Shown in pieces: positions 7,471 through 21,203 of a stretch of 64,000 nucleotides of DNA. The notes below the pieces were generated by a model. That model was not told the DNA's origin and searched no databases. It saw only the letters and a list, made by a program, of their open reading frames with translations. The stretch is from Syntrophobacterales bacterium (GTDB lineage Bacteria > Desulfobacterota > Desulfobaccia > Desulfobaccales > 0-14-0-80-60-11). A program made the translations under genes and the position numbers. The DNA is taken from assembly GCA_023512475.1 (NCBI GenBank), contig JAILZL010000004.1:12528-76527 (forward strand), in the 5' to 3' direction. How positions within the stretch are numbered: the first letter of the stretch is position 1; every line of letters begins with the position of its first letter.

Positions 7471-7535
7471 GACTGGCCCCCTCCCCCCCGGCTTAGGTGA
7501 CTGGCCCCCTCCCCACGGCTCTGGCCCCCTGCCCC
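7471..7535 (+). repeat. C-rich direct repeats (gactggccccctcccc x2 plus a degenerate third copy)
   Basis: Perfect 16-mer at 7471-7486 and 7499-7514. Related ctggccccctgcccc at 7521-7535. They sit inside a non-coding spacer of about 650 nt that is strongly C-rich on the + strand. Confidence 0.8.
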
Positions 7536-7631
7536 TTCCCTTGCTCAGGCGGCTTGGCCACCTCTTAGGGCTTCGGCGCCCTGCCTGCCGCCCAGCCGGG
7601 CCTGCCCCCGGGACCGACGCCCCTGCCCCCC

Positions 7632-8615
7632 TCACCACCAGGAGCGGGGCAGGCGCACCCTCACCCGCATGCCGTAGACCAGCCGGTGGGGATTGGCCTG
7701 CTCTGCGGCGATTTCCGCCACCAAGGCCCGTTGCCGCCGCAGGTAGTAATCCTGATATTCCGGCGGCAGGGGTTCGGAAGCCGGATAGACCTTCTTGACC
7801 GTGCCCGGAGTGCGGCGGCCGTCGGCGAAGAGGATGGTGGTGGCCTGACCGGGATGGACCCGCTCCCGATCCTTTTCCGCCACGAAGGCTTTGACGAAGA
7901 GGTCATGCGGGTCCACCAGGGTGAGCACCGCCTGCCCCGCCTGCACCACCTCCCCGGGCTGGCGGTTGCGGCTGATGACCACGCCTTCCCGGGGGAGGCG
8001 CAGCTCCGTGACCACCCGGGCGGCGGGCTGCTGAAAGCGGTGGTACAGGTCGGCCAGAAGCTGCCGTTCCTTCTTGAGGACCGTCAGCCGCTGCTTCAGC
8101 CTCCCCACCTCGGCCTCGGCCTCCCGACACTCCAGGTCCAATTTTTTAACATCCCCGTATTTCAGGATTTTTTGCTCCAAAAGCTCCTGGGAGCGGCGCC
8201 GCTCCTGGGCCAGGGCCGCGGCCACCCCGCCCTTGAGACGTATCTCCCGGGCCGTCACCTCCGCGTCCCCGGCCAGGCGGGTCAGGGCCTCCTCAATGCG
8301 GAAGATCATCTCCGGCGGCCAGGTGTCGGCGAGGCGGCGGGTGACATCCACCCGGGCCACCACGGTGCCTGCCGGGACCGTATCCCCCACTTCCACCAGC
8401 ACCTGCTCCAGCCGGCCGGGCTCCTCGCACTGCACCAAAAACTCCCGGCCGTCCACCAGGGCCGGGAGGTCCAGGTAGAGGGCCCGGCGGCCCAGCCACT
8501 CGCCCAGGGCCAGCACCAGGCAGGCCAGCAAGGCCAGATACAGGAACTTACCCCAGGAGCGCCGGGGCGGCTCCGGCTCCCTTTTGTACAGGGGCGGCAA
8601 TGCCGGGGCTTTCAT
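7632..8615 (-). CDS. HlyD-family periplasmic adaptor, last gene of the EPS module
   Basis: 327 aa. N-terminal TM (FLYLALLACLVLALGEWL), a lipoyl-like hairpin (VEVGDTVPAGTVVARVD ... GEVVQAGQAVLTLVD) and a central coiled-coil. Confidence 0.8.
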   Translation of the reverse strand: MKAPALPPLYKREPEPPRRSWGKFLYLALLACLVLALGEWLGRRALYLDLPALVDGREFLVQCEEPGRLEQVLVEVGDTVPAGTVVARVDVTRRLADTWPPEMIFRIEEALTRLAGDAEVTAREIRLKGGVAAALAQERRRSQELLEQKILKYGDVKKLDLECREAEAEVGRLKQRLTVLKKERQLLADLYHRFQQPAARVVTELRLPREGVVISRNRQPGEVVQAGQAVLTLVDPHDLFVKAFVAEKDRERVHPGQATTILFADGRRTPGTVKKVYPASEPLPPEYQDYYLRRQRALVAEIAAEQANPHRLVYGMRVRVRLPRSWW

Positions 8616-8628
8616 GGTCTCTCCTCCC

Positions 8629-10725
8629 TCAGCGCCACTTTTTCACCTCCTCGTACTGAAACAGGGCAAAGCCGGCCGGGGGCGGCTTCAGCTGCCCCTG
8701 GAGGCGGGCCAGAAAAGCCCGGAGGGCCGCCTCGCCGGCAAAGTCCCGCACCTGCACCCCCACCCAGTAGGGTTTCCCGAGGCGGCTCAGCAGGGCGGTT
8801 TCCGCCGTCAGGGATGCCGCCAGGCGCTGCGGGTCGGTCTGTTCATAGGCCATAAACACCACCCCGTCAGCCTGGCGGAGGAGCTCCGGCCACATCTCCA
8901 CCCCTTCCTCCTCCAGCCATACCGGCACATCCAGCCACACCGGCAGTCCCGCCCCCTGGGATTGCACCAGCCTGAGGGTCTCCAGGAGGTAGCCGGCATA
9001 GGTGGCCCGCCGCTCCCGCCATTGGGGGAGCTGGTGGATCTCCAGGTCCAGATGCACGGCCCGGAAGCGGGCCTCCTCCGGCCCCCCGGCCTGGAACTCC
9101 CGCAGCCAGCGGAGATAACCGAGAAGATCGTCCCGGCGCGCCGGCAGGAGCCAGGTGGTTTCATCCAACAGGGCATGCACGGCCACCCCCTGGCGGTGCG
9201 CGGCCGCCAGGAATTCCCGCAGCCGGGGGGCAAATCCATTCCCCGGCGCGATCATGGCGCGATTCAGACAGAGATAGACCGCCGTCAGCCCCTTCTCCCG
9301 GGCCAGGGCGGGGAGCCGGCCCAGCTCTCCGGAGGTGATCAGGCGGTCGGGGTAATAGAGCCAGACGGCCAAAGGCGGGGAGGCCGCCGCAGCCGGGGAG
9401 GGCGGCGCCCCGGTCGCCGTCGGAACGGCGGTCAGGTCATCCGTGCCCACCGCCAGGAGCAGGGCGGCGTAAGCCCGTTCCCGCTCCGCCTCCCGGGCGG
9501 CCTCCTCCCGGGCCGCGGTCTCCGCCTGCACCCGGGCCGACAGCACCTCCAGGCCCGAGGCGGAGGCCAGGAGGGAAGGCTTCGCCGCCATGACCATTCT
9601 GGCCCGGAGCTGTTCTTCCGCCAGCCGGCGCTGGGTTTGGGCCACTCTCAGGCGCGCCTCCGCGGCCTGGTAGCGCTCCAGGGCCGCCGCCACCTCCCGC
9701 TCCACCTGAAGGGCCAGGGCCTCGCCCCGGGCCTCCTGGGCCGCCGCCTCGCTTTGGGAGCTCTCCCGGCGATGGCGCACCAGCTGCACCGCCTCCAAGG
9801 GGGCGGTGAACCGGGCCATGAGGAAGGCGCCGCTGCGGGTGCCGATGTCTTTGTATTGATCCACGTAGTAGCGGGCCTCCAGGTTGAGGTCGCACACCTG
9901 GGCCACCGCCCGCTCGCCGTTGATGCGGGCCTCCCGCACGCGCCAGGGCACTGCGGCGAGCTCCGGCCGGGAGTTTCGGGCCAGACGCACCAGTTCAGCG
10001 AAACCGGGCAGCCGGGGCCTTTCCGGGGTATGGGGAGCCAGCTGCACGGCGCCGGGGTCGAGGCCCAAAAGGGTGGCCAGGCGCTGGCGGCGGTTCTCCT
10101 GCACCCGGGCCGCCAGGGCCGCCTGCTCCCGGGCCTCCAGCCACTGGTGCTCCAGGGCCAGCACCTCAGCCGGGAGGACCTCCCGCTCTTTTTCCCCCCG
10201 GCGAGCCAGGCGGACGGCCTCTTCCAGGAGCGCGGCCGCGCTCCGATGCCGCCTCTTTTGCTCCTCTGCCTCCCAGTGCTCCAGATAAAGCTGCCGCACC
10301 TCGAAAAGCGCCTCCTGCAGCGCCCGCCGGCCCTCCGCCTCGGCCGCCTTGAGCTGGCAGGCGGCCCGTTCCACCTCCCCCGGCCCCGCCCCCAGGCGTT
10401 TCAGAACCGGCAGCACCACCCCGGCCTCGGCATGATGCTGGACGCTGCTGAAGCTCCGGTCCGTCTCGCTGAACACGGGATTGGTGTTGTAGTTGTAGCC
10501 GGCCTGGAATTCCGGGCCGAAGCGGTGCCGGGACTCGTCTTTCCGGCTGGCCAGGGAGCGGCACCGGAACTGTGCCTCTTTGACCAGGGGATGGCGGCTC
10601 GCCGCCAGGACCTCCAGATCCCGCAACGACAGCACCCCGGCAGGCGGGGCCGGCGCGGCCCCGGCCGGACTTGCCGACCCCCACCCGAGACTGATCGCCA
10701 CCAGCGCACACACGAGGATGCCCAT
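8629..10725 (-). CDS. TolC-like outer membrane factor fused to a C-terminal glycoside-hydrolase-like (alpha/beta-barrel-like) domain
   Basis: The ORF-track start at 10959 overlaps the upstream GT2 gene. The in-frame ATG at 10725 gives a signal peptide (MGILVCALVAISLGWGSASPAGA) 10 nt after the GT2 stop. Residues ~30-450 are OEP/TolC-like coiled-coil repeats. A Pro/Ala linker follows. The last ~240 aa show alternating strand/helix segments (AVYLCL, VAVHALL, AVHLDLE, VWLDVP, VVFMAYE, YWVGVQV). Confidence 0.65.
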   Translation of the reverse strand: MGILVCALVAISLGWGSASPAGAAPAPPAGVLSLRDLEVLAASRHPLVKEAQFRCRSLASRKDESRHRFGPEFQAGYNYNTNPVFSETDRSFSSVQHHAEAGVVLPVLKRLGAGPGEVERAACQLKAAEAEGRRALQEALFEVRQLYLEHWEAEEQKRRHRSAAALLEEAVRLARRGEKEREVLPAEVLALEHQWLEAREQAALAARVQENRRQRLATLLGLDPGAVQLAPHTPERPRLPGFAELVRLARNSRPELAAVPWRVREARINGERAVAQVCDLNLEARYYVDQYKDIGTRSGAFLMARFTAPLEAVQLVRHRRESSQSEAAAQEARGEALALQVEREVAAALERYQAAEARLRVAQTQRRLAEEQLRARMVMAAKPSLLASASGLEVLSARVQAETAAREEAAREAERERAYAALLLAVGTDDLTAVPTATGAPPSPAAAASPPLAVWLYYPDRLITSGELGRLPALAREKGLTAVYLCLNRAMIAPGNGFAPRLREFLAAAHRQGVAVHALLDETTWLLPARRDDLLGYLRWLREFQAGGPEEARFRAVHLDLEIHQLPQWRERRATYAGYLLETLRLVQSQGAGLPVWLDVPVWLEEEGVEMWPELLRQADGVVFMAYEQTDPQRLAASLTAETALLSRLGKPYWVGVQVRDFAGEAALRAFLARLQGQLKPPPAGFALFQYEEVKKWR

Positions 10726-10735
10726 GGGTCCGTCC

Positions 10736-12040
10736 TTACCAGTGAATGGTTCTTTTCCCCACCCACGGCGGGATGTAGCGCACCCGGTAGGTGTAGGTGA
10801 ACAGCCACTCCCCCACATGGGCCGCCAGCCGCACCGGACGCAGTAAAAAATTGTTGTACAGGGGGAACAAAGGCACATAGAGGAGCAGGGGGAGATCCAG
10901 GCGCCGGCGGTCGAAAAGGGCCCAGGCGGTGGCGAATTGGGCCAGGGAAAAGAGGACATAGACGAAATACACCGCCACCAGCACCACCAGGGTGGCCTCC
11001 CGAAAGAGGTAGTAGAGATAAAAGGGGTAGAGGACGAAGGCCAGGTTCTGCACCAGCTGGAAAAGGATCAGGTCAATGGCGCCCAGCAGGCTGCGGACGG
11101 AGAAGTTGGCGGCGCTCAGATCATAGAGATTGCGGTATTTCCTCAGCACCAGGCTGATGAGGGAGTTGTCCCAGCGCAGCCGCTGGCGGATGAGGCCCCG
11201 CACCGTGGCCGGAACCTCGGTGAGACAGAGGGTGCGGGGGGCGAAGGCGATGCGCCAGCCCTTTTCCCGGAGTTTGATGGTAATGTCCAGGTCTTCGCAG
11301 GTGTGCACGTCAAAGCCGCCCACCTGCGCCAGGGCCACCCGCCGCATGACCCCGAAGCCGCCCGAGACGATGAAGAGGGTGCCCCACCAGGCTTGGGCGA
11401 TGCGGCCCACCGAAATGGAGATGAGGTATTCCAGGTCCTGGAGGGCGGTGAGCACGCCGGCCTGGGCGTTTCGGGCCCGCAGGTTGCAGGACACCGCCCC
11501 CACCTGGGGATCGCAGAACTTTTTCAGGGCCTCCGCCACGGAGGTGCGGCTGAGGGAGCTGTCGGCGTCCAGGACCACCACGAACTCCCCCGAAGCAAAG
11601 TTGAGGGCCAGGTTCTGGGCCGAGGCCTTGCCGGTGCGCTGCTCATTGCGGAAGACCCGCACCCGGGGATCCTGATCCTGCCAGCGGCGGGCCACCTGTG
11701 AGGTGCCGTCGCGGGAGCCGTCGTCCACCACCAGGACCTCCAGCCAGGGATAGCTCTGGTCCAGCACGGAGGCCAGGGTCTGCCCCAGGTGGGCGGCTTC
11801 GTTGTGGGCGGGGATGATGACCGAGACCACCGCCTCCTCGGCCTGAAGCCGGGTCAGAAACGCCTCCTCCGCCGGATCCTGCCGCACCACCAGGCTCCGG
11901 AGCAGCACCGCCAGATCCGCCATCAGGTAGCGGCCGCAGTCGAAGAGCACAAAAGGCCAGAAGATGCTCCAGAACTGCCACCGGCTCAGGTGCATCAGGA
12001 AGCGCAGGGCGTCTTCCGCCAGAGAGAAAAGGAACTCCAT
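10736..12040 (-). CDS. Processive family-2 glycosyltransferase (PgaC/NodC/cellulose-synthase-like polysaccharide synthase)
   Basis: ATG at 12040 (MEFLFSLAEDAL...). The ORF-track start at 12178 adds an implausible Cys/Ser-rich leader. Motifs: VIIPAHNE, VVDDGSRDGT, LDADS (DxD), CEDLD, and QRLRW (QxxRW). TM segments flank the GT domain at both ends. Confidence 0.85.
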   Translation of the reverse strand: MEFLFSLAEDALRFLMHLSRWQFWSIFWPFVLFDCGRYLMADLAVLLRSLVVRQDPAEEAFLTRLQAEEAVVSVIIPAHNEAAHLGQTLASVLDQSYPWLEVLVVDDGSRDGTSQVARRWQDQDPRVRVFRNEQRTGKASAQNLALNFASGEFVVVLDADSSLSRTSVAEALKKFCDPQVGAVSCNLRARNAQAGVLTALQDLEYLISISVGRIAQAWWGTLFIVSGGFGVMRRVALAQVGGFDVHTCEDLDITIKLREKGWRIAFAPRTLCLTEVPATVRGLIRQRLRWDNSLISLVLRKYRNLYDLSAANFSVRSLLGAIDLILFQLVQNLAFVLYPFYLYYLFREATLVVLVAVYFVYVLFSLAQFATAWALFDRRRLDLPLLLYVPLFPLYNNFLLRPVRLAAHVGEWLFTYTYRVRYIPPWVGKRTIHW

Positions 12041-12452
12041 GTGGGGGCCCGCAGATTTTTTCCTGCATCGGCTTTTGGGACATGAACTCGAACAATTTTC
12101 GAAAAAACTTAAAGAAAATTTTGGGCACGGCCGGAATGGGGTGGAGCCGACGGCCGTTTTCTGAGGCGGGAGGGACAAAGAGGCGTGGCGGCTTTGCGGG
12201 GCCCTGCTTGGAGAGGCAAGGGAAAATCCTGCCCCAGCGCCGGCTGGGAGGACCTGCTCCGTGGCGGAGTGGTCATGCGGAGGCCGAGGCGGATGTGCCG
12301 TACAGTTCGGTCCGCCCGCCCGGGGCGGGGAGGTCAGGTGGTTTCCGACAAGCTACCGGGGAAAAACCCGGCCTTCCGGTTCCGGAAGGCGGCAGAAGCG
12401 GGTTTCCGGCCCCGGGGACGCCCCTCCTCCTGGCCCAGGAGCAGGACCGGGG

Positions 12453-13457
12453 TCAGTCGGCGGCGGGGCGCCGGCCGAAGCTGGCCACCGCGGCGGCGTC
12501 CTCCCGGAGCCAGTCCGCCACTTCCCGGACGATTAAGGACAGGCGGCGGCGGGGCGAAAAACCCAGGAGGCTCTGGATCTTGCTGATGTCCGGCACCCGA
12601 TGGTCCATATCCTCATAGCCGGCTCCGTAGACCTGCTCATAGGGGAGGAACACGATGGGGGAGGAGGAGCGGGTGATCTCTTTCACCACCTGGGCCAAAT
12701 GGGCGATACTCACCTCCTCCGTGCTGCCGATATTGAAGATCTCCCCCACCGCCCGGGGCTCGCCCGTCAGCTGGATCAGGACCTCCACCACCTCCGCCAC
12801 GTGGATGAAGCAGCGGGTCTGGCGGCCGCTGCCATGGACGGTGATGGGTTCCCCCCGAAGGGCCTGGGCCACGAACGTGGGCAGGACCATGCCGTAGCGC
12901 CCGGTCTGGCGGGGCCCCACGGTGTTGAAGAGGCGGGTGATGATGACCGGCAGGCGGCGTTCCCGGTGGTAGGCCAGGGCCAGGAATTCATCCGCCAGCT
13001 TGGAGCAGGCATAGCCCCAGCGGCTGAGATGGCTGGGGCCCAGCACCAGGTCGTCTTCCTCGGAGAACCTCTCCCGCCGGGATTTGCCATACACCTCGGA
13101 GGTGGAGGCCACCAGGATCAGGCGCTGGTAGCGGGCCGCCAGGGACAGCAGGACATGGGTGCCCAGGATGTTGGTCTCCAGGGTCTCCACCGGGTGATGC
13201 AGGATATGCCGCACCCCCACCGCGGCGGCCAGATGGAAGATGACGTCCGCTTCCCGGACGAGCTTCGCCATCAGCTCCTGATCCCGCACATCCCCGGTCA
13301 CCAAGGAGAAGCCCGGATGGGCGGCCAGACCGGCAATATTGGCATAGGAACCGGTGCTGAAATTATCCACGGCCAGCACCCGCCGGCCTTCGCGAAGCAG
13401 CCGGGCACACAGATGGGAACCGATAAAGCCGGCCCCGCCGGTCACCAGATAGACCAT
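12453..13457 (-). CDS. NAD-dependent sugar-nucleotide epimerase/dehydratase (extended SDR)
   Basis: [11 protein letters not shown] Rossmann motif and YACSKLADE (YxxxK). 334 aa. Confidence 0.85.
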
Positions 13458-13674
13458 CGGTAACCCCTTGTCGGTCGGAAGTATCTATTACACTCAAGCC
13501 GCCGGTCCTGACGGCAGGCCACCCCCCCCAAAGAATGCCTCGGCAGCACTGCCTTTGCCCTTAAATTTTGGGTCCGGCAAAGGGTAACCACCCCAGGCTT
13601 TTTCATCCCGGGACGCCGTGGCCCGGGAGGGCCGGAGGCTCCGCCCCCATGATGCCGCTCAGGGAGCTCCGGGT

Positions 13675-15111
13675 CTACGGACCGGTCAGCAGGGCGTGCT
13701 TCAGGGCCTCGGCCTCCCCGGAGCCGGGGAGCGGCAGGATCTGGCAGGAAAAATCCAGAGGAAAACTCAGGACCTCCCGGCTGCGCTGCACCAGGCGGTC
13801 CACCACGGTTTGGGCCTGAGCCGCTTCGGTTTCCGGCAGCAGGAGGAGAATCTCCCGGTGGGGGGAGACGGTCACCAGATCCGTCTGCCGGGTGTGGCTG
13901 CCGATGATCTCCTGGAGCTCCTTCACCAACAGCATTTTGCCCCCCACCCCCAGCTGGCCCTCCAGCTCCTCCAGGTTGCGGATGGCCAGGCGGATGAGGC
14001 TGGCCTGCCGGCGGTAGCGGTCGCAGCGCTTAAGCTCCAGGTCCAGGTAGGCCTGGAAGAAGGGGAAGGAGTAGATGTTCAGGAAATGATGCAGCACCTC
14101 CTCCAGGCCCAGGCGGGTGTGGAGGCCCAGGAGGGCGGCCTCGACCCCCTGCGGGGAGAGGGAAAAGCGCTGAATGGCCAGGGGGCGGGTGCGATCGGGG
14201 GGAAAGACGGCTCCGCAGCGGATGCACAGGCAGGACAGCTCCGGTTCCTGGAAGGTGCCGCCGCAGACCTCGCACAGGAGCACCTCCCCCGGCTTGGCGT
14301 AATCCACCCCGATGTGACGCAGTTCCTTGCTGCATTTGGGGCAGACATAGCGGTCCCGGCGCACGAACGCGGTCTGGGGGGCCACATGGCCGCAGCTGTA
14401 ATGCTGGATGGTGGGGGTGCGCCGCCACCGGGGGCTCTGGCAGCCGGGGCACACCTGCCGGCAGGCGAGCCGGAAATCCTCGCAGGTAGGGCACAAAGGC
14501 ACGTAATCCACCACCTCCGCCTCCAGCAGGCCTTCCCGGGCCAGACGGTTCATCTCCATCAGGCCCTGGCCCGGCGCCACCCTGAGGAGCGCATCCGCCC
14601 AGGCCAGCCGGTAGCCGTACGGGGAGGTCTCATCCCGCCCGGGCATCACCTGGGAGAGGTCCCGGGAATGGAGGAAGCGCAGCAGGGTGATCTCCCGGGC
14701 CGCCTTCTCGTCCAGCGCGGCGGAGATGGGGGGATAGCGCTCCAGGCAGGCCCGGATGGGGGTCAGGGCTTTCAGCGCCGCCCGGAACTCAAAGCCGGAG
14801 AGGGGCAGGGTGAGGAGATGATCGCACTCCGGCGGGGTCAGCCGGTGGGGGCTGCGGGGGAGCACCACAAGGACGGGGGTGAGGGCCCACCCCGGGGAGC
14901 GCCGCAGCGCCTCCAGACCGCGCCGGGCGCCGTTCTCCGCTGTGGCGGCGAAAATGAGGAGATCCACCGGAAAGGTCCGGTCCGGAACGCCTCCGGAGCT
15001 GCCCACCAGCTTCAGTTCGGCCACCCCCGAAAGTCCACCCAGGACCTCCTGGTAGAGATCGGCATTTTCCACGATGACATAAACACCATAAGAAAGCTTC
15101 TGAGATACCAT
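13675..15111 (-). CDS. Signalling protein: receiver-like N-domain + Cys-rich Zn-ribbon module (TackOD1-like?) + degenerate GGDEF domain with RxxD I-site
   Basis: 478 aa. Five CxxC pairs (C207/210, C221/224, C257/260, C280/283, C296/299). The C-terminal ~130 aa align to a GGDEF fold, but the GG(D/E)EF position reads PHREI. RQTD lies exactly 5 residues upstream of it. Confidence 0.6.
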   Translation of the reverse strand: MVSQKLSYGVYVIVENADLYQEVLGGLSGVAELKLVGSSGGVPDRTFPVDLLIFAATAENGARRGLEALRRSPGWALTPVLVVLPRSPHRLTPPECDHLLTLPLSGFEFRAALKALTPIRACLERYPPISAALDEKAAREITLLRFLHSRDLSQVMPGRDETSPYGYRLAWADALLRVAPGQGLMEMNRLAREGLLEAEVVDYVPLCPTCEDFRLACRQVCPGCQSPRWRRTPTIQHYSCGHVAPQTAFVRRDRYVCPKCSKELRHIGVDYAKPGEVLLCEVCGGTFQEPELSCLCIRCGAVFPPDRTRPLAIQRFSLSPQGVEAALLGLHTRLGLEEVLHHFLNIYSFPFFQAYLDLELKRCDRYRRQASLIRLAIRNLEELEGQLGVGGKMLLVKELQEIIGSHTRQTDLVTVSPHREILLLLPETEAAQAQTVVDRLVQRSREVLSFPLDFSCQILPLPGSGEAEALKHALLTGP

Positions 15112-15240
15112 GCCCCGACTCCTTCAGCCCCTGGGCTGCTTCTGTGTGTGCCCATCGGCCGTTTCGGAAAAAACCTTAGAAGATTTTTCACTTTCCTTGA
15201 AAAACCTGCCGTTCCCGGAGGGGGCCCCCTCCCCGGCCGG

Positions 15241-15269
15241 TTGACTCGGGGACGGGTTCAGGAAACAAT
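15241..15269 (+). promoter_or_regulatory. sigma70-like promoter placed for a leaderless HlyD/ABC-2 operon transcript
   Basis: TTGACT (15241-15246), 17-nt spacer, AACAAT (15264-15269). The ATG at 15276 begins 7 nt after the -10 element. Confidence 0.4.
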
Positions 15270-15275
15270 AGAGGC

Positions 15276-16304
15276 ATGCCTCCGGAAACCACCGCAGCTC
15301 AGGTCACCGGGAAAGTCCCGTGGCGACGGCGTATCCCCTTGGTGGTAGCCGCGGTCCTCCTGGTGGGGGGGAGCCTCTGGTGGTGGCAGCGCCACAGTCT
15401 CCCTCCCGAGGCGGCCCTGCGCCTCACCGGCCACATTGAGGCCACCGAAACCCATCTGGGCTTCAAGGTCCCCGGCCTCATCTCCGCCATCCATTTTCAG
15501 GAAGGGGAGGAAATCCGGGCCGGACAGCTGGTGGCGGAGCTGGATGACCGGGACCTGCGGCAGGAGCTGGCCGCGGCGGAGGCCCGGCTGGCCGCCGCCC
15601 AGGCCAATCTCGCCCGGCTGGAGGCGGGCTACCGCCCCCAGGAAGTCCGGGAGGCCCAGGCCGCCGTGGCCCAGGCCCGGGCGGATTACGACGACAAGGC
15701 CCGGGAATTCCGGCGCTTTCAGACCCTCTTTGCCCGCCGGGTGGTCTCGGCCCAGACCCGGGACCGGGCCGAAGCCGCCTTCCTCATGGCCCAGGAGGCC
15801 CTGAACCGGGCCAAGGAGCGCTACGATCTCCTCCGCAGCGGCTTCCGGAAGGAGGAGATTGAGCAGGCCCGGGCCGAGGCGCAGCAGGCCGAGGCGCAGC
15901 GGGATCTGGCCCGGACCAGGTGGGGTTACGCCCGCATCACCGCCCCGGTGACCGGCGTCGTCCTGGCCCGGCCGGCGGAACCCGGCCAGGTGGCCCAGGT
16001 GGGGGCCACCATTCTCACCCTGGGGGACCTGGATAACCTCTGGTTCGAAGGCTGGCTGCCGGAGACCCAGCTCGGGAAGGTGCGCTACGGCCAGAAGGCC
16101 CAGGTGACCACCGACTCCTATCCCGGCAAGGTCTACCCCGGCTGGATCTCCTACATCGCCAGCAAGGCCGAGTTCACCCCCAAGATGGTGGAAACCTTCA
16201 AGGAGCGGGTCACCCTGGTGTACCGCACCAAAATCCGGGTGGACAACCCCCACCATGAACTCAAACCCGGCATGCCCGCGGAGGCGGTGATCCTGCCGGA
16301 GTGA
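15276..16304 (+). CDS. HlyD-family efflux adaptor (YbhG-like)
   Basis: 342 aa. N-terminal TM (IPLVVAAVLLVGGSLWWW), a lipoyl hairpin, a coiled-coil (LAAAEARLAAAQANLARLEAG...) and a C-terminal beta-barrel. Confidence 0.8.
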   Translation: MPPETTAAQVTGKVPWRRRIPLVVAAVLLVGGSLWWWQRHSLPPEAALRLTGHIEATETHLGFKVPGLISAIHFQEGEEIRAGQLVAELDDRDLRQELAAAEARLAAAQANLARLEAGYRPQEVREAQAAVAQARADYDDKAREFRRFQTLFARRVVSAQTRDRAEAAFLMAQEALNRAKERYDLLRSGFRKEEIEQARAEAQQAEAQRDLARTRWGYARITAPVTGVVLARPAEPGQVAQVGATILTLGDLDNLWFEGWLPETQLGKVRYGQKAQVTTDSYPGKVYPGWISYIASKAEFTPKMVETFKERVTLVYRTKIRVDNPHHELKPGMPAEAVILPE

Positions 16305-16371
16305 GCCCGCCAGCCGGCTCTCCGGGGCTGAGCCGCAGGCCGGAGCCCGGGCGGGGCACTATCCCGGACCG

Positions 16372-17307
16372 ATGCAGCCCGTCATCGAAGTGGAAGGCCT
16401 GACCAAGGATTTCGGCCGTTTCCGGGCGGTGGACGGAGTCAGCTTCGCCGTCTCTCCGGGGGAGATCTTCGGGTTTCTGGGGCCCAACGGCGCCGGCAAA
16501 TCCACCACCATCCGCATGTTGCTGGGGTTGCTCCGGCCCAGCGGCGGCTCCGGGCGGGTGGCCGGGTATGACCTGGTCCGGGAGCAGAGCCGCATCAAGG
16601 CGAAGGTGGGGTACATGTCCCAGCGCTTCAGCCTTTATGAGGACCTCACTGCTGAGGAGAACCTGGAGTTTTTCGGCGGGGTCTACGGCCTGAGCCAGGG
16701 GCGCCTCAGGCAGCGCCTGGCGGAGGTGCTGGAGCTGGTGGGCCTGACGGACCGGCGCCGGGACCTGACCCGCACCCTGGCCCTGGGGCTGCGCCAGCGC
16801 CTGGCGTTGGCCTCCGCCATGCTGCATGAGCCGCCGCTGCTGTTTCTGGATGAGCCCACCAGCGGCGTGGATCCCGTGTCCCGGCGGACCTTCTGGGACC
16901 TGATCTACCGGCTGGCGGCCCAGGGGGTGACGGTCCTGGTCACCACCCATTACCTGGATGAGGCGGAGTTATGCGATCGGCTGGTGCTCATTTCCCAGGG
17001 CCGGCTCATCGCCCAGGGGACTCCCCGGGAGCTGAAGGCAAAAGTGACGCACCGCATCCTGGCGGTCTACCCCGACCGGCTGGCGGAGGCCTTAGCCGCC
17101 GCCCGCCAGATCCCCGAAGCCTCCGAGGTGGCGGTGTTCGGGGCCGGCCTGCACGTGGCCTTTCCCCCGGAAGTGCCGGGGGAGGCCCTCCTGACCCGGG
17201 CCCTGGCGGCCCGGGGTGTGAGCCTCCGGGAGCTCCGGCCGGTCTCCCCCACCCTGGAGGACGCCTTCATCACCCTCACCCGCCGGGCCTCCCAGGGGAC
17301 GGTATGA
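16372..17307 (+). CDS. ABC-2-type transporter ATP-binding protein
   Basis: Walker A GPNGAGKST, Q-loop MSQRF, Walker B LLFLDEPTSG. The signature region is degenerate (TLALGLRQRLAL). Confidence 0.85.
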   Translation: MQPVIEVEGLTKDFGRFRAVDGVSFAVSPGEIFGFLGPNGAGKSTTIRMLLGLLRPSGGSGRVAGYDLVREQSRIKAKVGYMSQRFSLYEDLTAEENLEFFGGVYGLSQGRLRQRLAEVLELVGLTDRRRDLTRTLALGLRQRLALASAMLHEPPLLFLDEPTSGVDPVSRRTFWDLIYRLAAQGVTVLVTTHYLDEAELCDRLVLISQGRLIAQGTPRELKAKVTHRILAVYPDRLAEALAAARQIPEASEVAVFGAGLHVAFPPEVPGEALLTRALAARGVSLRELRPVSPTLEDAFITLTRRASQGTV

Positions 17308-18437
17308 ACCTGAGGCGCACCTTCGCCGTCTTCCGCAAGGAGCTCATCCACATCCAGCGGGATCCCTCCAGCCTGGTGCAGGCCATTCTCCTGCCGGTGA
17401 TGCTCCTGTTGCTGTACGGCTATGCCCTCACCTTTGACATCACCGAGGTGCCGGTGGCGGTCTGGGACCGGGAGCAGAGCCGGGCCAGCCGCGAGCTGGT
17501 GCAGCGCTTCGGGTCCTCCCGCTACTTTACCCTGAGCCATCAGGTGACAAGCTCCGGGGAGATCGCCCGCCTGTTTGACCGGCGCCGCATCTGGCTGGCC
17601 CTGATTCTGCCCCCGGATTTCTCCCGCTACCTGAAGACCGAAGAACCTGCACCCCTGATGGCCATCGTGGACGGCACCGACGCCAACACCGCCAATGTCA
17701 TCCTGGGCTATGTCCAGGGGGTGGTGGCCGACTACAGCCGGGAGGTGGCCCAGGACCGCCTGCGGGCCCGGGGATTCACCCGACCCCTGGTGGAACTGAA
17801 AAGCGACGTGCGGGTGTGGTTCAATGAAGATCTGGAGAGCAAAAACTACATCGTTCCCGGACTGATTGTGGTCATCATGACCATGGTGGGGTCGCTCCTC
17901 ACCGCCCTCACCATCGTCCGGGAAGCGGAGCGGGGCAGCATGGAAGGCCTCATGGCCACCCCGCTGAAGAAATGGGAGCTCATCTTCGGGAAACTGGGGC
18001 CCTACTTTCTCATCGGCATGGTGGACATGTTCATTGCCCTGGGAATGGGGAAGTTTCTCTTTGAGGTGCCGTTGCGGGGCAGCGTGGCCCTCCTGATCGT
18101 GCTGTCCGCCCTGTTTCTGGTGGTGATGCTGGGGCAGGGCCTCCTCATTTCGGTCCTGTCCGTCAATCAGCTCCAGGCCTACCAGATGGCCACCCTGTTC
18201 ACCTTTCTGCCCGCCTTTCTGCTGTCGGGCTTTGTCTTTGCCATCAAGCAGATGCCGCTGCCCCTGCAGCTGGTGAGCTATCTGGTGCCCTCCCGCTATT
18301 TCGTCACCATCTCCAAGGGCATCTATCTCAAGGGCACCGGCCTTACCCTCCTGTGGGGCGAAGTGGTGCTGCTCCTGGCCTTTGCCGTCTTCTTTCTGGT
18401 GATGGCCCAACGCCGGCTGGTGAAAAAGATCCGCTGA
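17304..18437 (+). CDS. ABC-2 family permease
   Basis: The in-frame ATG at 17304 overlaps the ATPase stop (ATGA). MNLRRTFAVFRKELIHIQRDPSSL is a typical ABC-2 N-terminus. A C-terminal polytopic region follows. The ORF-track start at 16971 lies inside the ATPase gene. Confidence 0.85.
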   Translation: MNLRRTFAVFRKELIHIQRDPSSLVQAILLPVMLLLLYGYALTFDITEVPVAVWDREQSRASRELVQRFGSSRYFTLSHQVTSSGEIARLFDRRRIWLALILPPDFSRYLKTEEPAPLMAIVDGTDANTANVILGYVQGVVADYSREVAQDRLRARGFTRPLVELKSDVRVWFNEDLESKNYIVPGLIVVIMTMVGSLLTALTIVREAERGSMEGLMATPLKKWELIFGKLGPYFLIGMVDMFIALGMGKFLFEVPLRGSVALLIVLSALFLVVMLGQGLLISVLSVNQLQAYQMATLFTFLPAFLLSGFVFAIKQMPLPLQLVSYLVPSRYFVTISKGIYLKGTGLTLLWGEVVLLLAFAVFFLVMAQRRLVKKIR

Positions 18438-18470
18438 GGGCGGCCTCAAAGGGCCTTGAAGGGGGAGTGG

Positions 18471-19601
18471 ATGCTGCGGCGACTGCGACACATGGTGAAA
18501 AAGGAGCTCATCCAGGCGCTAAGGGACCCGCGTCTCAGGCTCTTCGTCATCCTGCCGCCCCTCATCCAGCTCATCATCTACGGCTATGCCATCAACTTCG
18601 ACCTGAAGCACATCGGCACCGGGGTGCTGGATCTGGATCTGAGCCGGGCCTCCCGGCAGTTGGTCAGCCGTTTTGCCGCCACGGAATACTTTTCCCTGGA
18701 TCAGGTCCTGAAGGAGCCGGGGGACATCAGCCGCCTCATGGACCGGAACCGGGTGACCCTGGTCCTGCGTTTCGCCCCGGATTTCGGCCGGGAACTGGCC
18801 GGCGGCCGTCCGGCCCGGCTGCAGCTCATCCTGGATGGCACCGATTCCAACAGCGCCCTGGTGGTGGCCCGCTACGCCGCCCAGGTGCTGGCGGACTACC
18901 AGGAGGAGCTGGCTGCGGCGCGCCTTGCAGCCCTGGGACTGCCGCCGGAGCTGGCCCGGCCCGTGAGGCTGGAGCCCCGGGCCTGGTTCAACGAGAACCT
19001 CATCAGCCGCTGGTCCTTTGTGCCGGGGGTCATCGCCATGGTGGTCATGCTGGTGAGCCTGATGCTCACCGCCCTGGCGGTGGTGCGGGAAAAGGAACTG
19101 GGCACCATGGAGCAGATCCTGGTGACGCCCTTGCGGCCGGTGGAATTTCTCCTGGGGAAGACCATCCCCTTTGTGCTCATCGCCCTGGCGGATGTGGTGC
19201 TGGTGACCCTGGTGGGGGTTTTCTGGTTCGAGGTGCCCTTCCGGGGCAGCGTGGCGGTCCTGTTTTTGGGGGTCCTCTGCTTTCTGTTCAATTCCGTGGG
19301 CCTGGGGCTGCTCATCTCCACCGTGTCCGCCACCCAGCAGCAGGCGATGATGGCGGGGACCTTCTTTTTCACCCCGGCCATTTTGCTGTCGGGGCTGGTC
19401 TTTCCGCTGCGCAACATGCCCGAGGCGGTGCAGTATCTCACCTATCTCAATCCCTTGCGCTATTTCATCATCATCATCCAGGACGTCTTTCTCAAGGGGG
19501 CGGGGCTCTCCGTCCTCTGGCCACAGATGCTGGGCCTGGGGCTTTTGGGTCTGTCCCTTTTGACGTTCAGCGTATTGCGCTCTCAGCGGTATCTGGGATA
19601 A
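18471..19601 (+). CDS. ABC-2 family permease (paralogue of the preceding gene)
   Basis: ATG at 18471 preceded by GGGGGAG. MLRRLRHMVKKELIQALRDPRL parallels the N-terminus of the upstream paralogue. Same length and TM pattern. Confidence 0.85.
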   Translation: MLRRLRHMVKKELIQALRDPRLRLFVILPPLIQLIIYGYAINFDLKHIGTGVLDLDLSRASRQLVSRFAATEYFSLDQVLKEPGDISRLMDRNRVTLVLRFAPDFGRELAGGRPARLQLILDGTDSNSALVVARYAAQVLADYQEELAAARLAALGLPPELARPVRLEPRAWFNENLISRWSFVPGVIAMVVMLVSLMLTALAVVREKELGTMEQILVTPLRPVEFLLGKTIPFVLIALADVVLVTLVGVFWFEVPFRGSVAVLFLGVLCFLFNSVGLGLLISTVSATQQQAMMAGTFFFTPAILLSGLVFPLRNMPEAVQYLTYLNPLRYFIIIIQDVFLKGAGLSVLWPQMLGLGLLGLSLLTFSVLRSQRYLG

Positions 19602-19847
19602 GCACTGGCCCTTGATTTAACTTTTCGTTAACAAATTAACCCCTTTTCCGCCCTAGCCCCAGCCGCCCCCTCCTTCTGTACCTGAAATCAGGCCGGAAAA
19701 ATCATCAGAGCGTGTATTGCCCCGATTCAACTTAAGGTGTCGATACTACGGAATACCTGGACAAAAAATTAACCAAAATCCTCTGTCCCTCTGCCCTTCT
19801 CCGGAAGAGCCAGAGGCCCTTCGCCCATGCCACCCCAAGGAGGAGCT

Positions 19848-21203
19848 ATGCCTGCACAACCACGCCTCTCTCCCGCCGCCTTGACCCTGGGTGCCCTGGC
19901 CGCCTTCCTGGCGGCCCTCCTCTGGACCGGCTTTTCCGGCCCCGCGGAGGCCGCCAAAGGCAGAAAACCCCGGCCCGGCAGCTCCGGCCACCACGGCGTC
20001 ACCACCTACCAGGGGAGCGCCACCTGCAAGCAGTGCCACAGCAACAAGGTCCAGGAGGTGCTGGACTCGGAGCACTACCGGTGGGCCGGAAAACTGGGAA
20101 AAATCAACGACTTCTGCATCTACCCCGACATCAACTGGCTGCAGCAGATCACCGTCGCGGCCCCCGACGGCACCAGCAAGACCACCGTCACCGGCTGCGC
20201 CTCCTGCCATGTGAGCTACGGGGAGTTCACCCCGCCGGCGGTGGGCGGCACCATGCCGGTGCAGGCCGACAACATTGACTGTCTCATCTGCCATTCCGAC
20301 GCCTACCGGCGGGTGGGCACCCTGGTAAACGGCAAGCCCGCCCTGGTCATCGACCCCAGCCTCAATCAGGCGGCGGTGCTGGCGGCCATCAAAAAGACCC
20401 CCTCCGCCCAGGCCTGCCTGAACTGCCATGCCCGGGCCGGGGGCGGCAACGCCATCAAGCAGGGGGACCTGGAGCTGGCCCAGGCCAACCCGCCCTATGA
20501 CCTGGATGTGCACCTGGCCACCACCGCGGTGGGCGGCGCCGGGTTGACCTGCGTCTCCTGTCACACGGTGAGCGCCCACAAGATCGCCGGCAAGGGCAAT
20601 GACCTGAGGGTGGCGGAAGGAAGCGGCATGAAGACCTGCACCACCTGCCACGGCACCGCCCCCCACGGCTCCGGCAATCTCAACAAGCACTACAGCCGGG
20701 ACAAGCAGCCCCTGGACTGCACCGTCTGCCACATCCCCACCTACGCCCGGGGGCTGGAGACGGAGACCCGCCGGGACTTCAGCGCCGCCGCGGAGTTCGA
20801 CCCCGGGGTGGGCCGCTGGGAGCCCCACCGCCTCCTGGAGGCGGACCTCACCCCGGTGTGGAGGACCTGGAACGGCACCTCGTTCTTCTATAACCTGGGC
20901 ACCGCCATCAGCGGCGATACCCTGACCCTGGCCGGCCCCAACCCCGGCACCCGCCTCTACCCCTTCAAGGTGCACACCGCCCGCATGGCGGTGGACCAGA
21001 ACCACCGGCTCATCCCCCTGAAATCCGCGCCCCTGTGGAGCCGGGGCGACCTGAACCTGGCCCGGGTCCAGGGGGAGCTGGAGGTCTTCGGGACCAACCT
21101 CACCTCGGTGCGCTATGTGGAGACCACCCGCTATTTCGGGCTGTATCACCAGGTGGCCCCCAAGGAGGCGGCCAAACAGGTGTGCGCCCGCTGCCACAAG
21201 TAA
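19848..21203 (+). CDS. Octaheme c-type cytochrome, secreted
   Basis: Eight CxxCH motifs (CKQCH, CASCH, CLICH, CLNCH, CVSCH, CTTCH, CTVCH, CARCH). Signal peptide ALTLGALAAFLAALLWTGFSGPAEA. ATG at 19848 is preceded by AAGGAGGA. Confidence 0.85.
   Translation: MPAQPRLSPAALTLGALAAFLAALLWTGFSGPAEAAKGRKPRPGSSGHHGVTTYQGSATCKQCHSNKVQEVLDSEHYRWAGKLGKINDFCIYPDINWLQQITVAAPDGTSKTTVTGCASCHVSYGEFTPPAVGGTMPVQADNIDCLICHSDAYRRVGTLVNGKPALVIDPSLNQAAVLAAIKKTPSAQACLNCHARAGGGNAIKQGDLELAQANPPYDLDVHLATTAVGGAGLTCVSCHTVSAHKIAGKGNDLRVAEGSGMKTCTTCHGTAPHGSGNLNKHYSRDKQPLDCTVCHIPTYARGLETETRRDFSAAAEFDPGVGRWEPHRLLEADLTPVWRTWNGTSFFYNLGTAISGDTLTLAGPNPGTRLYPFKVHTARMAVDQNHRLIPLKSAPLWSRGDLNLARVQGELEVFGTNLTSVRYVETTRYFGLYHQVAPKEAAKQVCARCHK

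What the first reader, a model, noticed from the sequence alone, without database searches (positions are those of the whole stretch)
13675..15111. Receiver-like / five-CxxC / degenerate-GGDEF protein that keeps the RxxD I-site: probable c-di-GMP receptor
- The N-terminal ~120 aa have a CheY-like strand/helix pattern (VYVIVEN..., DLLIFAAT, PVLVVL) without a clear acidic pocket.
- Residues 207-299 carry five CxxC pairs: CPTC, CPGC, CPKC, CEVC, CIRC. This is enough for two or more zinc ribbons and is reminiscent of the TackOD1 output domain.
- The C-terminal domain aligns to GGDEF. The active-site motif reads PHREI, so it is expected to be inactive.
- RQTD sits exactly five residues upstream of that position, where the inhibitory-site RxxD lies in active cyclases.
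- Degenerate GGDEF domains with an intact I-site (PelD, PopA) are established c-di-GMP receptors, and PelD controls an EPS synthase.
- The combination with a Cys-rich metal module, and the position at the head of the EPS module, is unusual.
Basis: partly seen in the sequence, partly recalled or inferred. Interest (0 to 1): 0.65.

Follow-up and report, generated by a model that had tools for sequence, protein, structure and literature searches.

The report
Probable c-di-GMP sensor of polysaccharide synthase
This gene encodes a three-part protein (a dead receiver domain, a triple zinc-finger "TackOD1" module and a dead cyclase domain that keeps its c-di-GMP pocket) that in hundreds of bacterial species sits next to the same sugar-polymerising enzyme, so it is most likely the signal-sensing subunit of a widespread, unstudied slime-secretion machine.

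Summary
ORF 13675-15111 (-) encodes 478 aa in three parts:
- a receiver-like domain without a phospho-acceptor (A55);
- a full TackOD1 domain (Pfam E 7e-45, with 5 CxxC plus one HxxC);
- a catalytically dead, C-terminally shortened GGDEF fold, with PHREI in place of GGDEF and RQTD at the I-site.

It belongs to a large uncharacterised family: about 1300 clusters at 50% identity and at least 581 species. None of 175 representatives has GG[DE]EF. The 12 metal ligands are 94-100% conserved.

In the GGDEF-like part, the conserved residues include the c-di-GMP I-site set: R408 90%, D411 97%, R439 81%. R408 and R439 are kept or lost together. They are intact in Proteobacteria, Desulfobacterota, Calditrichota and others, and mostly lost in Bacteroidota and Balneolaeota.

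The gene adjoins or lies near a PgaC-like GT2 synthase in 80 of 84 loci. A HlyD-like adaptor and a ~665-aa OEP-like protein usually accompany them. Variants with a true receiver and no GGDEF, or with no receiver, keep the TackOD1-GT2 pair.

Best reading: a c-di-GMP-sensing regulatory subunit, with TackOD1 as the synthase-coupling module. Ligand binding and protein contact are inferred, not shown. It is a new variant of the PelD/PssE/BcsE kind.

The parts
13675..15111 (-). Gene for the 478-aa pseudo-receiver / TackOD1 / degenerate-GGDEF protein (identical to MAG Syntrophobacterales K6T55_02765)
14737..15090 (-). Residues 8-125: receiver-like domain with no phospho-acceptor (A55, codon 14947-14949) and no conserved Lys
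14161..14709 (-). Residues 135-317: TackOD1 domain, made of a helical N-terminal subdomain plus zinc ribbons
14215..14493 (-). Residues 207-299: twelve predicted metal ligands (C207, C210, C221, C224, H237, C240, C257, C260, C280, C283, C296, C299), enough for three tetrahedral sites. C217 and C294 are not conserved
13678..14106 (-). Residues 336-478: GGDEF-like fold. It is catalytically dead and ends after strand 4 and helix 4
13879..13890 (-). RQTD (R408-D411), the I-site RxxD motif
13849..13863 (-). PHREI (417-421), in place of GG(D/E)EF
13795..13797 (-). R439, the third I-site arginine (31 residues after R408, same spacing as PleD R359 to R390). It co-varies with R408
14026..14028 (-). R362, at the position of PleD R313 (secondary I-site) by my recollection of the PleD sequence. 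It is kept even where the I-site is lost, so it is probably structural
15112..15275 (.). 164-bp AT-richer divergent intergenic region, the presumed promoter region. No Rfam riboswitch was found
12453..13457 (-). NAD-dependent sugar-nucleotide epimerase/dehydratase. It is a clade-specific insertion between the sensor gene and the synthase
12371..12390 (-). Terminator-like hairpin (8 pairs followed by a T run) after the epimerase gene
10736..12040 (-). 434-aa membrane GT2 synthase, PgaC/NodC/BcsA-like, with DxD, CEDLD and QRLRW motifs. The true start is M47 of the listed ORF
8629..10725 (-). About 698-aa secreted protein: signal peptide, OEP/TolC-like half, and a conserved C-terminal domain of about 230 aa with unknown function
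7632..8615 (-). 327-aa HlyD-type membrane-fusion (adaptor) protein with an N-terminal membrane anchor

Best explanation
The protein is the cytoplasmic signal-sensing subunit of a synthase-dependent exopolysaccharide secretion system.

The system consists of a PgaC-like GT2 synthase, a HlyD-like periplasmic adaptor, and an OEP-like outer-membrane protein with an extra C-terminal domain. In this clade a sugar-nucleotide epimerase/dehydratase is added.

Proposed mechanism:
- An intercalated c-di-GMP dimer binds the retained inhibitory site of the dead GGDEF domain (R408, D411, R439).
- The change passes through the rigid, metal-stabilised TackOD1 module, which is the part that couples to the synthase. 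This switches polymerisation on.
- The N-terminal receiver is a non-phosphorylatable remnant that probably serves packing or dimerisation.

Shown by computation: the domain identities, loss of catalytic residues, conservation and co-variation of the I-site residues, and the invariant TackOD1-GT2 gene pairing.

Inferred only: c-di-GMP binding, metal identity, direct contact with the GT2, and the sign of regulation.
For: Domains:
- TackOD1 scores E 7e-45.
- The GGDEF fold is supported by a profile hit to DgcR (E 2e-15) and Foldseek TM 0.65-0.70.
- The CheY-like N-terminus is supported.

Dead active site:
- No GG[DE]EF occurs in 175 family representatives.
- The positions I map to the metal-binding Asp residues (A376, R378) are unconserved.

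I-site:
- R408 is 90% conserved, D411 97% and R439 81%. They are among the best-conserved residues of the GGDEF-like part.
- They align on the RxxD that is mutated in the DgcR I-site mutant structure.
- R408 and R439 are kept or lost together: 48/10/2/24 in loci and 141/17/1/16 in representatives.
- All three residues are intact in Gamma 16/16, Delta 6/6, Calditrichota, KSB1, Caldisericota and Aquificota.
- In Bacteroidota R439 survives in 1/27 and R408 in 10/27. In Balneolaeota R408 survives in 1/7.
- The first Bacteroidetes genomes surveyed had no diguanylate cyclases (PMC1183210).

Linkage:
- The GT2 directly follows the gene in 79 of 84 loci and lies one gene away in L005. Called gene ends are 1-nt overlap to 3-nt gaps.
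- The adaptor and OEP-like genes flank the pair in either of two orders.
- Variants REC-TackOD1 (no GGDEF) and TackOD1-GGDEF* (no REC) keep the same GT2 neighbour. This includes a two-gene actinobacterial version.

Precedents: PssE, PelD and BcsE are degenerate-GGDEF I-site receptors that activate EPS synthases (PMC4125290; PMC8461298).
Against: - No binding, metal or interaction data exist for any family member. Only one paper in the held library discusses the domain, and it calls its function obscure.
- D411 and R362 stay conserved where the arginines are lost, so part of the 'I-site' conservation is structural.
- The co-variation statistics are not corrected for phylogeny.
- The c-di-GMP content of the I-site-less genomes was not checked.
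- The GGDEF domain is truncated.
- In this window the GT2 is separated from the sensor gene by 217 bp, an epimerase gene and a terminator-like hairpin, so co-transcription is not assured.
- Two of 84 loci have the gene without a nearby GT2.
- No diguanylate cyclase is encoded in the 64-kb window.
Confidence: 0.58

Rival explanations
1. The protein is a c-di-GMP-responsive transcription factor. TackOD1 (a helical subdomain plus zinc ribbons) binds DNA and controls transcription of the adjacent polysaccharide genes instead of touching the synthase.
For: - TackOD1 was defined as an output domain of response regulators, and zinc ribbons often bind nucleic acids. Galperin compares the Cys arrangement to the PriA insert.
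- The helical N-terminal subdomain gives weak Foldseek matches to the MarR-type regulator ZitR (prob 0.25-0.33) and to MCM.
- A 164-bp divergent intergenic region lies upstream.
- In this window the GT2 sits behind a terminator-like hairpin, so regulation at a distance is conceivable.
Against: - No Foldseek PDB hit reaches E 0.001.
- Pfam scans of 23 members find only zinc-ribbon families and no HTH family.
- The strict, often overlapping TackOD1-to-GT2 gene order is preserved through operon rearrangements and in the two-gene actinobacterial form. This is more typical of subunits of one complex.
- Known I-site GGDEF receptors of EPS systems act post-translationally.
Confidence: 0.15
2. The protein is a ligand-independent structural subunit. 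It is an obligatory scaffold or co-polymerase of the synthase, and its RxxD and receiver features are evolutionary relics with no signalling role in this organism.
For: - Bacteroidota, Balneolaeota and Planctomycetia members keep the whole protein and its GT2 partner without R408/R439. The core function therefore does not need the I-site.
- D411 and R362 conservation is independent of the arginines.
- The receiver is clearly dead here (A55).
Against: - In the window's own lineage and most other phyla, R408, D411 and R439 are all retained, although every catalytic residue has drifted.
- The joint loss and retention of R408 and R439 is hard to explain without a shared ligand.
Confidence: 0.12
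3. The protein is a redox or metal sensor. The twelve Cys/His ligands bind iron or a redox-labile metal, so the TackOD1 module itself senses redox state or metal availability and gates the synthase. The GGDEF remnant is secondary.
For: - Twelve ligands are 86-100% conserved (H237 86%, replaced by Cys in a further 14%).
- Rubredoxin-like and HypA-like weak Pfam matches occur in many members.
- The host is an anaerobe-type Syntrophobacterales MAG with multihaem cytochromes nearby.
Against: - The pattern (CxxC knuckles in ribbon hairpins, very high AF2 confidence, pLDDT 94) is typical of structural zinc.
- The same ligand set is kept in aerobes and anaerobes across more than ten phyla.
- There is no direct evidence for iron.
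Confidence: 0.07
4. The protein is an active diguanylate cyclase that supplies c-di-GMP locally to the synthase.
For: A Pfam GGDEF hit just above threshold and NCBIfam weak hits to cyclases.
Against: - PHREI replaces GGDEF.
- The positions I map to the metal-binding Asp residues are A376 and R378.
- The C-terminal third of the domain is missing.
- None of 175 relatives has GG[DE]EF.
Confidence: 0.01

Closest known systems
PelD (Pseudomonas aeruginosa Pel system)
   Same: - It has a degenerate GGDEF domain that binds dimeric c-di-GMP through RxxD plus a downstream Arg (R367, D370, R402).
- It is a dedicated post-translational activator encoded in the polysaccharide operon (PMC8461298).
   Different: - PelD has four transmembrane helices and a GAF domain, with no TackOD1 and no receiver.
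- Its glycosyltransferase is a soluble GT4 (PelF), not a membrane GT2.
- No sequence match to PelD was seen in the PDB profile search.
PssE (Listeria) and YdaK (Bacillus subtilis)
   Same: - Both are degenerate-GGDEF I-site receptors encoded next to a PgaC/BcsA-like GT2 and required for c-di-GMP-induced polysaccharide.
- PssE has RxxD five residues upstream of a degenerate motif and binds two c-di-GMP molecules with Kd 0.8 uM (PMC4125290).
- YdaK details are from my own knowledge and PMC9800504.
   Different: - Those are membrane-anchored proteins (transmembrane region plus GGDEF*) of monoderm bacteria.
- They have no zinc module, no receiver, and no adaptor or outer-membrane partners.
BcsE (enterobacterial cellulose system)
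   Same: - It is a soluble multi-domain c-di-GMP binder of a synthase-dependent system whose C-terminal part is a degenerate GGDEF keeping the I-site (PMC8461298).
- By my knowledge of Zouhir et al. 2020 it also contains a degenerate receiver, giving the same REC*/GGDEF* logic.
   Different: - BcsE has no TackOD1 domain.
- In BcsE the REC* and GGDEF* domains are contiguous (the GIL domain) and follow a RecA-like N-domain.
- No GIL or BcsE family hit was found here.
- BcsA also has its own PilZ domain, whereas this GT2 shows no c-di-GMP-binding domain.
PleD / WspR / DgcR (REC-GGDEF cyclases) and PopA
   Same: - They are the best whole-protein structural matches (Foldseek E about 3e-8).
- The order is the same: receiver first, GGDEF last.
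- I-site geometry is the same (RxxD plus Arg at +31).
- PopA is the degenerate, I-site-only relative (own knowledge).
   Different: - A 200-residue TackOD1 module is inserted between the two domains.
- The receiver lacks its Asp.
- The GGDEF is dead and truncated.
- The partner is a polysaccharide synthase, not a cell-cycle protease adaptor.
Archaeal REC-TackOD1 response regulators (arCOG06883)
   Same: - The TackOD1 domain is the same, with 5 CxxC plus HxxC (11 Cys), placed after a receiver (PMC5847659).
- Bacterial REC-TackOD1 proteins with a complete receiver also exist (P0188).
   Different: - The archaeal proteins lack GGDEF.
- They are reported in type IV pilus loci, not next to a GT2. 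I did not examine archaeal loci.
- The receiver in the window protein is not phosphorylatable.
Tripartite synthase-adaptor-TolC polysaccharide exporters (rhizobial BgsBA plus TolC; cyanobacterial Tll0007 with a HlyD-like protein and TolC)
   Same: - At system level, a processive GT2 works with a HlyD-type membrane-fusion protein and a TolC-type channel.
- The system is activated by c-di-GMP (PMC5567048, PMC13438883, PMC12430437).
   Different: - In those systems c-di-GMP binds the synthase itself (the BgsA C-terminus, or a PilZ domain in Tll0007). Here the synthase is only 434 aa and the predicted sensor is a separate protein.
- The outer component carries an extra unknown domain of about 230 aa.

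Membership tests
TackOD1 (Pfam PF18551) | Match to the family model above the curated cut-off over its full length | tested here: met
   153.3 bits against a cut-off of 32, profile positions 5-187 of 188
TackOD1 (Pfam PF18551) | Eleven conserved Cys arranged as five CxxC and one HxxC (Galperin 2018) | tested here: met
   CxxC at 207, 221, 257, 280 and 296 and HYSC at 237. Conservation is 94-100% for the Cys and 86% for H237, with Cys replacing it in a further 14%, across 175 relatives. The definition is quoted
TackOD1 (Pfam PF18551) | Metal (zinc) binding | not testable with these tools
   Only inferred from the ligand pattern and zinc-ribbon family matches
Response-regulator receiver (PF00072) | CheY-like fold | tested here: met
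   AF2 topology, family profile against CheY at E 0.004-0.03, and alignment to true-REC members P0020 and P0135
Response-regulator receiver (PF00072) | Phospho-acceptor Asp, acidic pair, and conserved Thr/Ser and Lys | tested here: not met
   A55 sits at the acceptor position. There is no conserved Lys and no Pfam REC hit
Diguanylate cyclase (active GGDEF, PF00990) | GGDEF-domain fold | tested here: met
   Pfam 23.9 bits against a cut-off of 23.8, profile against DgcR at E 2e-15, and Foldseek TM 0.65-0.70. The last third of the domain is absent
Diguanylate cyclase (active GGDEF, PF00990) | GG(D/E)EF active-site motif and metal- and GTP-binding residues | tested here: not met
   PHREI replaces the motif. 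A376 and R378 sit at the positions I map to the metal-binding Asp residues. None of 175 relatives has GG[DE]EF
Degenerate-GGDEF I-site c-di-GMP receptors (PelD / PopA / PssE / BcsE type) | RxxD five residues upstream of the (degenerate) signature motif | tested here: met
   RQTD 408-411 precedes PHREI 417-421 and aligns on the RKSD of DgcR that is mutated in 6zxc. R is 90% and D 97% conserved
Degenerate-GGDEF I-site c-di-GMP receptors (PelD / PopA / PssE / BcsE type) | Additional downstream Arg completing the site (PleD R390, PelD R402) | tested here: met
   R439 lies at +31, is 81% conserved and co-varies with R408
Degenerate-GGDEF I-site c-di-GMP receptors (PelD / PopA / PssE / BcsE type) | Measured, I-site-dependent c-di-GMP binding | not testable with these tools
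   Needs DRaCALA or ITC on wild type and R408A/D411A/R439A
PelD family proper | Transmembrane helices plus GAF plus GGDEF* architecture, in a pel operon with PelE/F/G | tested here: not met
   No transmembrane segment, no GAF hit, and the neighbours are a GT2, a HlyD-like and an OEP-like protein
BcsE / GIL domain | Match to the GIL (DUF2819) model, in a bcs operon | tested here: not met
   No such family appears among Pfam or NCBIfam hits at E up to 10
Synthase-dependent EPS system (processive GT2 core) | Neighbouring membrane GT2 with D, DxD, (T)ED and QxxRW motifs, related to PgaC/BcsA/NodC | tested here: met
   PgaC_IcaA 195 bits (below the equivalog cut-off of 422), NodC, and BcsA at E 1e-18 over residues 45-387. 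The VLDADS, CEDLD and QRLRW motifs can be read

The most novel reading that the evidence does not exclude
TackOD1, so far a domain of 'obscure' function, may be the dedicated coupling module of a previously unrecognised polysaccharide secretion system found across many phyla.
- The system comprises a PgaC-like GT2, a HlyD-like adaptor and an OEP-like protein with an unknown extra domain.
- One conserved zinc module would relay interchangeable inputs directly to the synthase.
- The inputs are c-di-GMP through a dead GGDEF in most phyla, and phosphorylation through a true receiver in some Balneolaeota and Bacteroidota.
Probability: 0.45. Interest if true: 0.75.

Novelty: new variant of a known kind. 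Interest (0 to 1): 0.62.

Why it matters
- It would give the first functional context for the TackOD1 domain.
- It would add a fifth architecture to the small set of degenerate-GGDEF receptors that switch polysaccharide synthases on (PelD, PssE/YdaK, BcsE).
- It flags an uncharacterised four-gene exopolysaccharide system present in at least 581 species from more than ten phyla. These include cultured marine Gammaproteobacteria and Bacteroidota in which it could be tested.
- The I-site is intact in most phyla and lost in Bacteroidota and Balneolaeota, and some relatives are receiver-only. This offers a ready-made comparative test of how one output module is rewired between second-messenger and phosphorylation inputs.

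Tried and rejected
- **Pfam scan of 23 TackOD1 segments.** It found only zinc-ribbon families and no HTH family.
- **PDB sequence search with the family profile.** It found no solved relative of the TackOD1 part.
- **Rfam scan of 7000-16500.** It found no riboswitch or other RNA family.
- **Six-frame motif search of the window for GG[DE]EF, HD-GYP and PilZ signatures.** It found nothing credible.
- **C-terminal domain of the OEP-like protein.** No Pfam or PDB match was found.
- **Literature.** Searches for TackOD1, PF18551 and combinations of degenerate GGDEF, zinc ribbon and glycosyltransferase found no characterisation of this family. The Römling et al. 2013 review was not held.
- **Active cyclase reading.** Rejected because the motif and metal ligands are absent in the whole family.
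- **The long antisense ORF 13618-15348 (+).** I treat it as a high-GC artefact.
- **Reciprocal pattern between a restored receiver Asp and a lost I-site.** Position 55 did not show a clean one.
Full report
**The gene.** The ORF at 13675-15111 on the minus strand encodes 478 aa. It starts at an ATG preceded by GAAGGAG. The protein is identical to a hypothetical protein of a Syntrophobacterales MAG (K6T55_02765). A 576-aa ORF on the opposite strand covers the same DNA. Given 66-69% G+C, I take it to be an artefact.

**Domain identities.**
- Pfam gives a full-length TackOD1 match: E 7.2e-45, residues 135-317.
- Pfam gives a GGDEF match that only just passes: 23.9 against 23.8 bits, profile positions 14-111 of 161.
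- The Cys pattern is CPTC207, CPGC221, HYSC237, CPKC257, CEVC280 and CIRC296. This is the five CxxC plus one HxxC (11 Cys) that Galperin et al. used to define TackOD1. They call its function obscure (PMC5847659).
- An AlphaFold2 model built on 30 homologues is confident (pLDDT 87.6, pTM 0.75). It shows three domains: an alternating strand/helix domain (8-125), TackOD1 (135-330, blocks mostly above 90), and a GGDEF-like domain that stops after strand 4 and helix 4.
- Foldseek against the PDB ranks the REC-GGDEF cyclases PleD, WspR and DgcR first (E about 3e-8). Isolated GGDEF domains superpose at TM 0.65-0.70.
- A profile of the family hits DgcR at E 2e-15 and CheY at E 0.004-0.03 over residues 12-118.
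- In the DgcR alignment the family's R..D columns lie on RKSD, the two residues replaced in the deposited I-site mutant (AKSA). PHREI lies on GGEEF.
It omits only the HxxC.

**The enzyme is dead and the receiver is dead.**
- The positions I map to the metal-binding aspartates of strand 1 are A376 and R378 here, and they are unconserved in the family.
- None of 175 relatives has GG[DE]EF.
- The tail after R439 is about 40-46 residues. A complete domain has about 65, by my knowledge of PleD.
- Alignment to family members with a Pfam-positive receiver (P0020, P0135) puts A55 at the phospho-acceptor position and no lysine at the K position.

**The family.**
- A HMMER profile search of 1.84 billion cluster representatives found 1303 clusters at E 1e-30 or better.
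- The best 150 are mostly 440-500 aa and match over most of their length.
- A scan of species-representative genomes with one peptide motif found at least 581 carriers.
- The carriers span Desulfobacterota, Gamma-, Beta- and Alphaproteobacteria, Calditrichota, KSB1, Caldisericota, Aquificota, Omnitrophota, Planctomycetota, Acidobacteriota, WOR-3, Bacteroidota and Balneolaeota, and include cultured strains.

**What is conserved.**
- In a 175-sequence alignment the twelve ligands C207, C210, C221, C224, H237 (Cys in 14%), C240, C257, C260, C280, C283, C296 and C299 are 86-100% conserved. C217 and C294 are not. Twelve ligands fit three tetrahedral metal sites.
- In the GGDEF-like part only F352, R365, R408 and D411 reach 85%. 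R439 (81%) and R362 (77%) follow.
- R408, D411 and R439 have the spacing of the PleD primary I-site (R359, D362, R390; established knowledge). It is also the spacing seen in the c-di-GMP-bound 3ign sequence shown.

**A natural experiment on the I-site.** I split 83 loci by taxon.
- All three residues are present in every Gamma- (16/16) and Deltaproteobacterial (6/6) member, and in Calditrichota, KSB1, Caldisericota, Aquificota, Beta, Alpha, Omnitrophota, Brocadiales and WOR-3.
- Bacteroidota keep R408 in 10/27 and R439 in 1/27.
- Balneolaeota keep R408 in 1/7 and R439 in 3/7.
- Planctomycetia have W and K at the two positions.
- D411 (25/27) and R362 (27/27) persist in Bacteroidota, so those two are probably structural.
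- R408 and R439 go together: 48 both, 10 R408 only, 2 R439 only and 24 neither in loci. In representatives the counts are 141, 17, 1 and 16. Fisher p is about 1e-11, not corrected for phylogeny.
- The first Bacteroidetes genomes surveyed had no diguanylate cyclases (PMC1183210).
- Retention where c-di-GMP signalling is common, and joint loss in Bacteroidota and Balneolaeota, is what a ligand site predicts and a purely structural motif does not.
- I could not count cyclases in the specific genomes.

**Gene neighbourhood.**
- In the window the minus-strand order is: sensor gene, epimerase/dehydratase (12453-13457), GT2 (10736-12040), a ~698-aa OEP-like protein (8629-10725), and a 327-aa HlyD-like adaptor (7632-8615).
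- The GT2 is closest to PgaC/IcaA (195 bits, below the equivalog cut-off), NodC and BcsA. It carries VLDADS, CEDLD and QRLRW. It has no c-di-GMP-binding domain.
- All four proteins are homologous between this window, other deltaproteobacterial MAGs and Crocinitomix.
- HMMs of the four proteins were run on six-frame ORFs of 84 loci. The GT2 lies directly after the sensor gene, on the same strand, in 79.
- In L005 the GT2 start is at the contig end after an inserted gene, as in the window. Two loci are cut by contig ends. Two (L022, L064) truly lack it.
- Called gene ends are a 1-nt overlap to a 3-nt gap.
- The large protein and the adaptor sit either just before the pair or just after it.
- The 74%-identical relative P0005 has the same order as the window, epimerase included.

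**Architectural variants.** A search with the TackOD1 segment alone found shorter relatives.
- TackOD1-GGDEF* without a receiver: P0249, P0182 and P0198, all with RxxD and a degenerate motif.
- REC-TackOD1 without GGDEF: P0188 of Fodinibius saliphilus has a complete receiver. P0229 of Sphingobacterium olei has the same layout.
- All three loci examined have the same ~433-441-aa GT2 immediately downstream.
- The actinobacterial locus has only this pair and no adaptor or OEP-like gene, as expected for a single-membrane cell. Sensor kinases lie a few genes upstream in the receiver-type loci.
- The constant unit is therefore TackOD1 plus GT2. The flanking domains are exchangeable inputs.

**Mechanism proposed.**
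- TackOD1 is the module that couples to the synthase.
- In the window protein the input is c-di-GMP bound at R408/D411/R439 of the dead GGDEF domain.
- The receiver remnant serves packing or dimerisation.
- This matches how PssE, PelD and BcsE work (PMC4125290; PMC8461298). A direct regulator-to-glycosyltransferase contact has a recent precedent in Myxococcus (PMC12802240).
- At system level the GT2-adaptor-TolC-type layout resembles BgsBA/TolC and the cyanobacterial Tll0007 system, where the synthase itself binds c-di-GMP.
- Binding, metal identity, contact and the sign of regulation are all inferred.

**Rivals.**
- DNA-binding regulator. This is the main alternative, because TackOD1 was defined as a response-regulator output and zinc ribbons often bind nucleic acids. 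However, the TackOD1-only model (pLDDT 94) has no PDB neighbour at E 0.001 or better. No HTH family appears in Pfam scans. The tight gene pairing also favours a complex.
- Ligand-independent scaffold. This fits the I-site-less lineages but not this one.
- Redox or iron sensing by the Cys cluster. This cannot be excluded without metal analysis.
- Active cyclase. This is excluded by the sequence.

**Caveats for this window.**
- The sensor gene and the GT2 are separated by 217 bp, the epimerase gene and a terminator-like hairpin at 12390-12371. They may be separate transcripts.
- No riboswitch was found.
- No cyclase is encoded within the 64 kb.

**Novelty and verdict.**
- Only one paper in the held library discusses the domain, and none characterises the bacterial family or the cassette.
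- The kind of protein (a degenerate-GGDEF I-site receptor for a polysaccharide synthase) is known.
- The architecture, the role implied for TackOD1, and the breadth of the associated four-gene system are new.

Noticed in passing
window 8629-9402 (-), C-terminal ~230 aa of the OEP-like protein; also L001 3386-5383 and L004 6924-8957: The outer component of the cassette has a signal peptide and a TolC/OEP-like half. It also has a conserved extra domain (motifs such as HLDLE..QLP.W and VVFMAYEQ) with no Pfam or PDB match. It might be a periplasmic polymer-processing domain, but that is a guess.
   Followed up: partly
window 12371-12390 (-) and 12453-13457 (-): A strong terminator-like hairpin follows the epimerase gene, which is inserted between the sensor gene and the GT2. 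The insertion is shared by the 74%-identical relative (L088), whereas most other phyla have the two genes abutting.
   Followed up: partly
L085 6001-7005 (Fodinibius saliphilus) and L086 6001-6996 (Sphingobacterium olei): These REC-TackOD1 proteins lack any GGDEF domain. One has a complete phospho-acceptor receiver. Both sit directly upstream of the same GT2, with large PAS-domain histidine kinases a few genes upstream. This looks like a phosphorylation-controlled version of the system.
   Followed up: partly
L087 6001-8422 (Actinobacteria MAG): This is a two-gene version, TackOD1-GGDEF* plus GT2, without adaptor or OEP-like genes. That is consistent with a single-membrane envelope.
   Followed up: partly
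L022 335-1822 and L064 7798-9255: Two loci carry the TackOD1 gene with no GT2 within the fetched DNA. Downstream genes are a GH57 amylase and CysRS in one, and isopropylmalate/isocitrate dehydrogenase in the other. This is unexplained.
   Followed up: partly
window 2752-6976 (+) and 15276-19615 (+): Two further envelope-spanning transporter sets flank the cassette. One is a MacB-type permease with ABC ATPase, OEP and HlyD. The other is a divergent HlyD with ABC ATPase and two ABC-2 permeases. The second set is syntenic in the relative L088.
   Followed up: no
window 19827-21203 (+): A multihaem c-type cytochrome (Cytochrome_C7, MtrC/MtrF-like domain hits) lies next to the ABC-2 transporter genes. 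It is also conserved in L088.
   Followed up: no
window 13618-15348 (+): A 576-aa ORF on the opposite strand spans the whole gene. I take it to be a high-G+C artefact, and did not test it.
   Followed up: no
P0276: A 163-aa TackOD1 fragment is labelled Salmonella enterica but lies on a 488-nt contig. It is probably assembly contamination rather than a real enterobacterial member.
   Followed up: no
P0161 and P0135: Some family members keep a full-length GGDEF domain (Pfam 85 and 54 bits, profile positions 3-160) and a true receiver, yet still lack GG[DE]EF. They look like intermediates between a REC-TackOD1-GGDEF ancestor and the reduced form in the window.
   Followed up: partly
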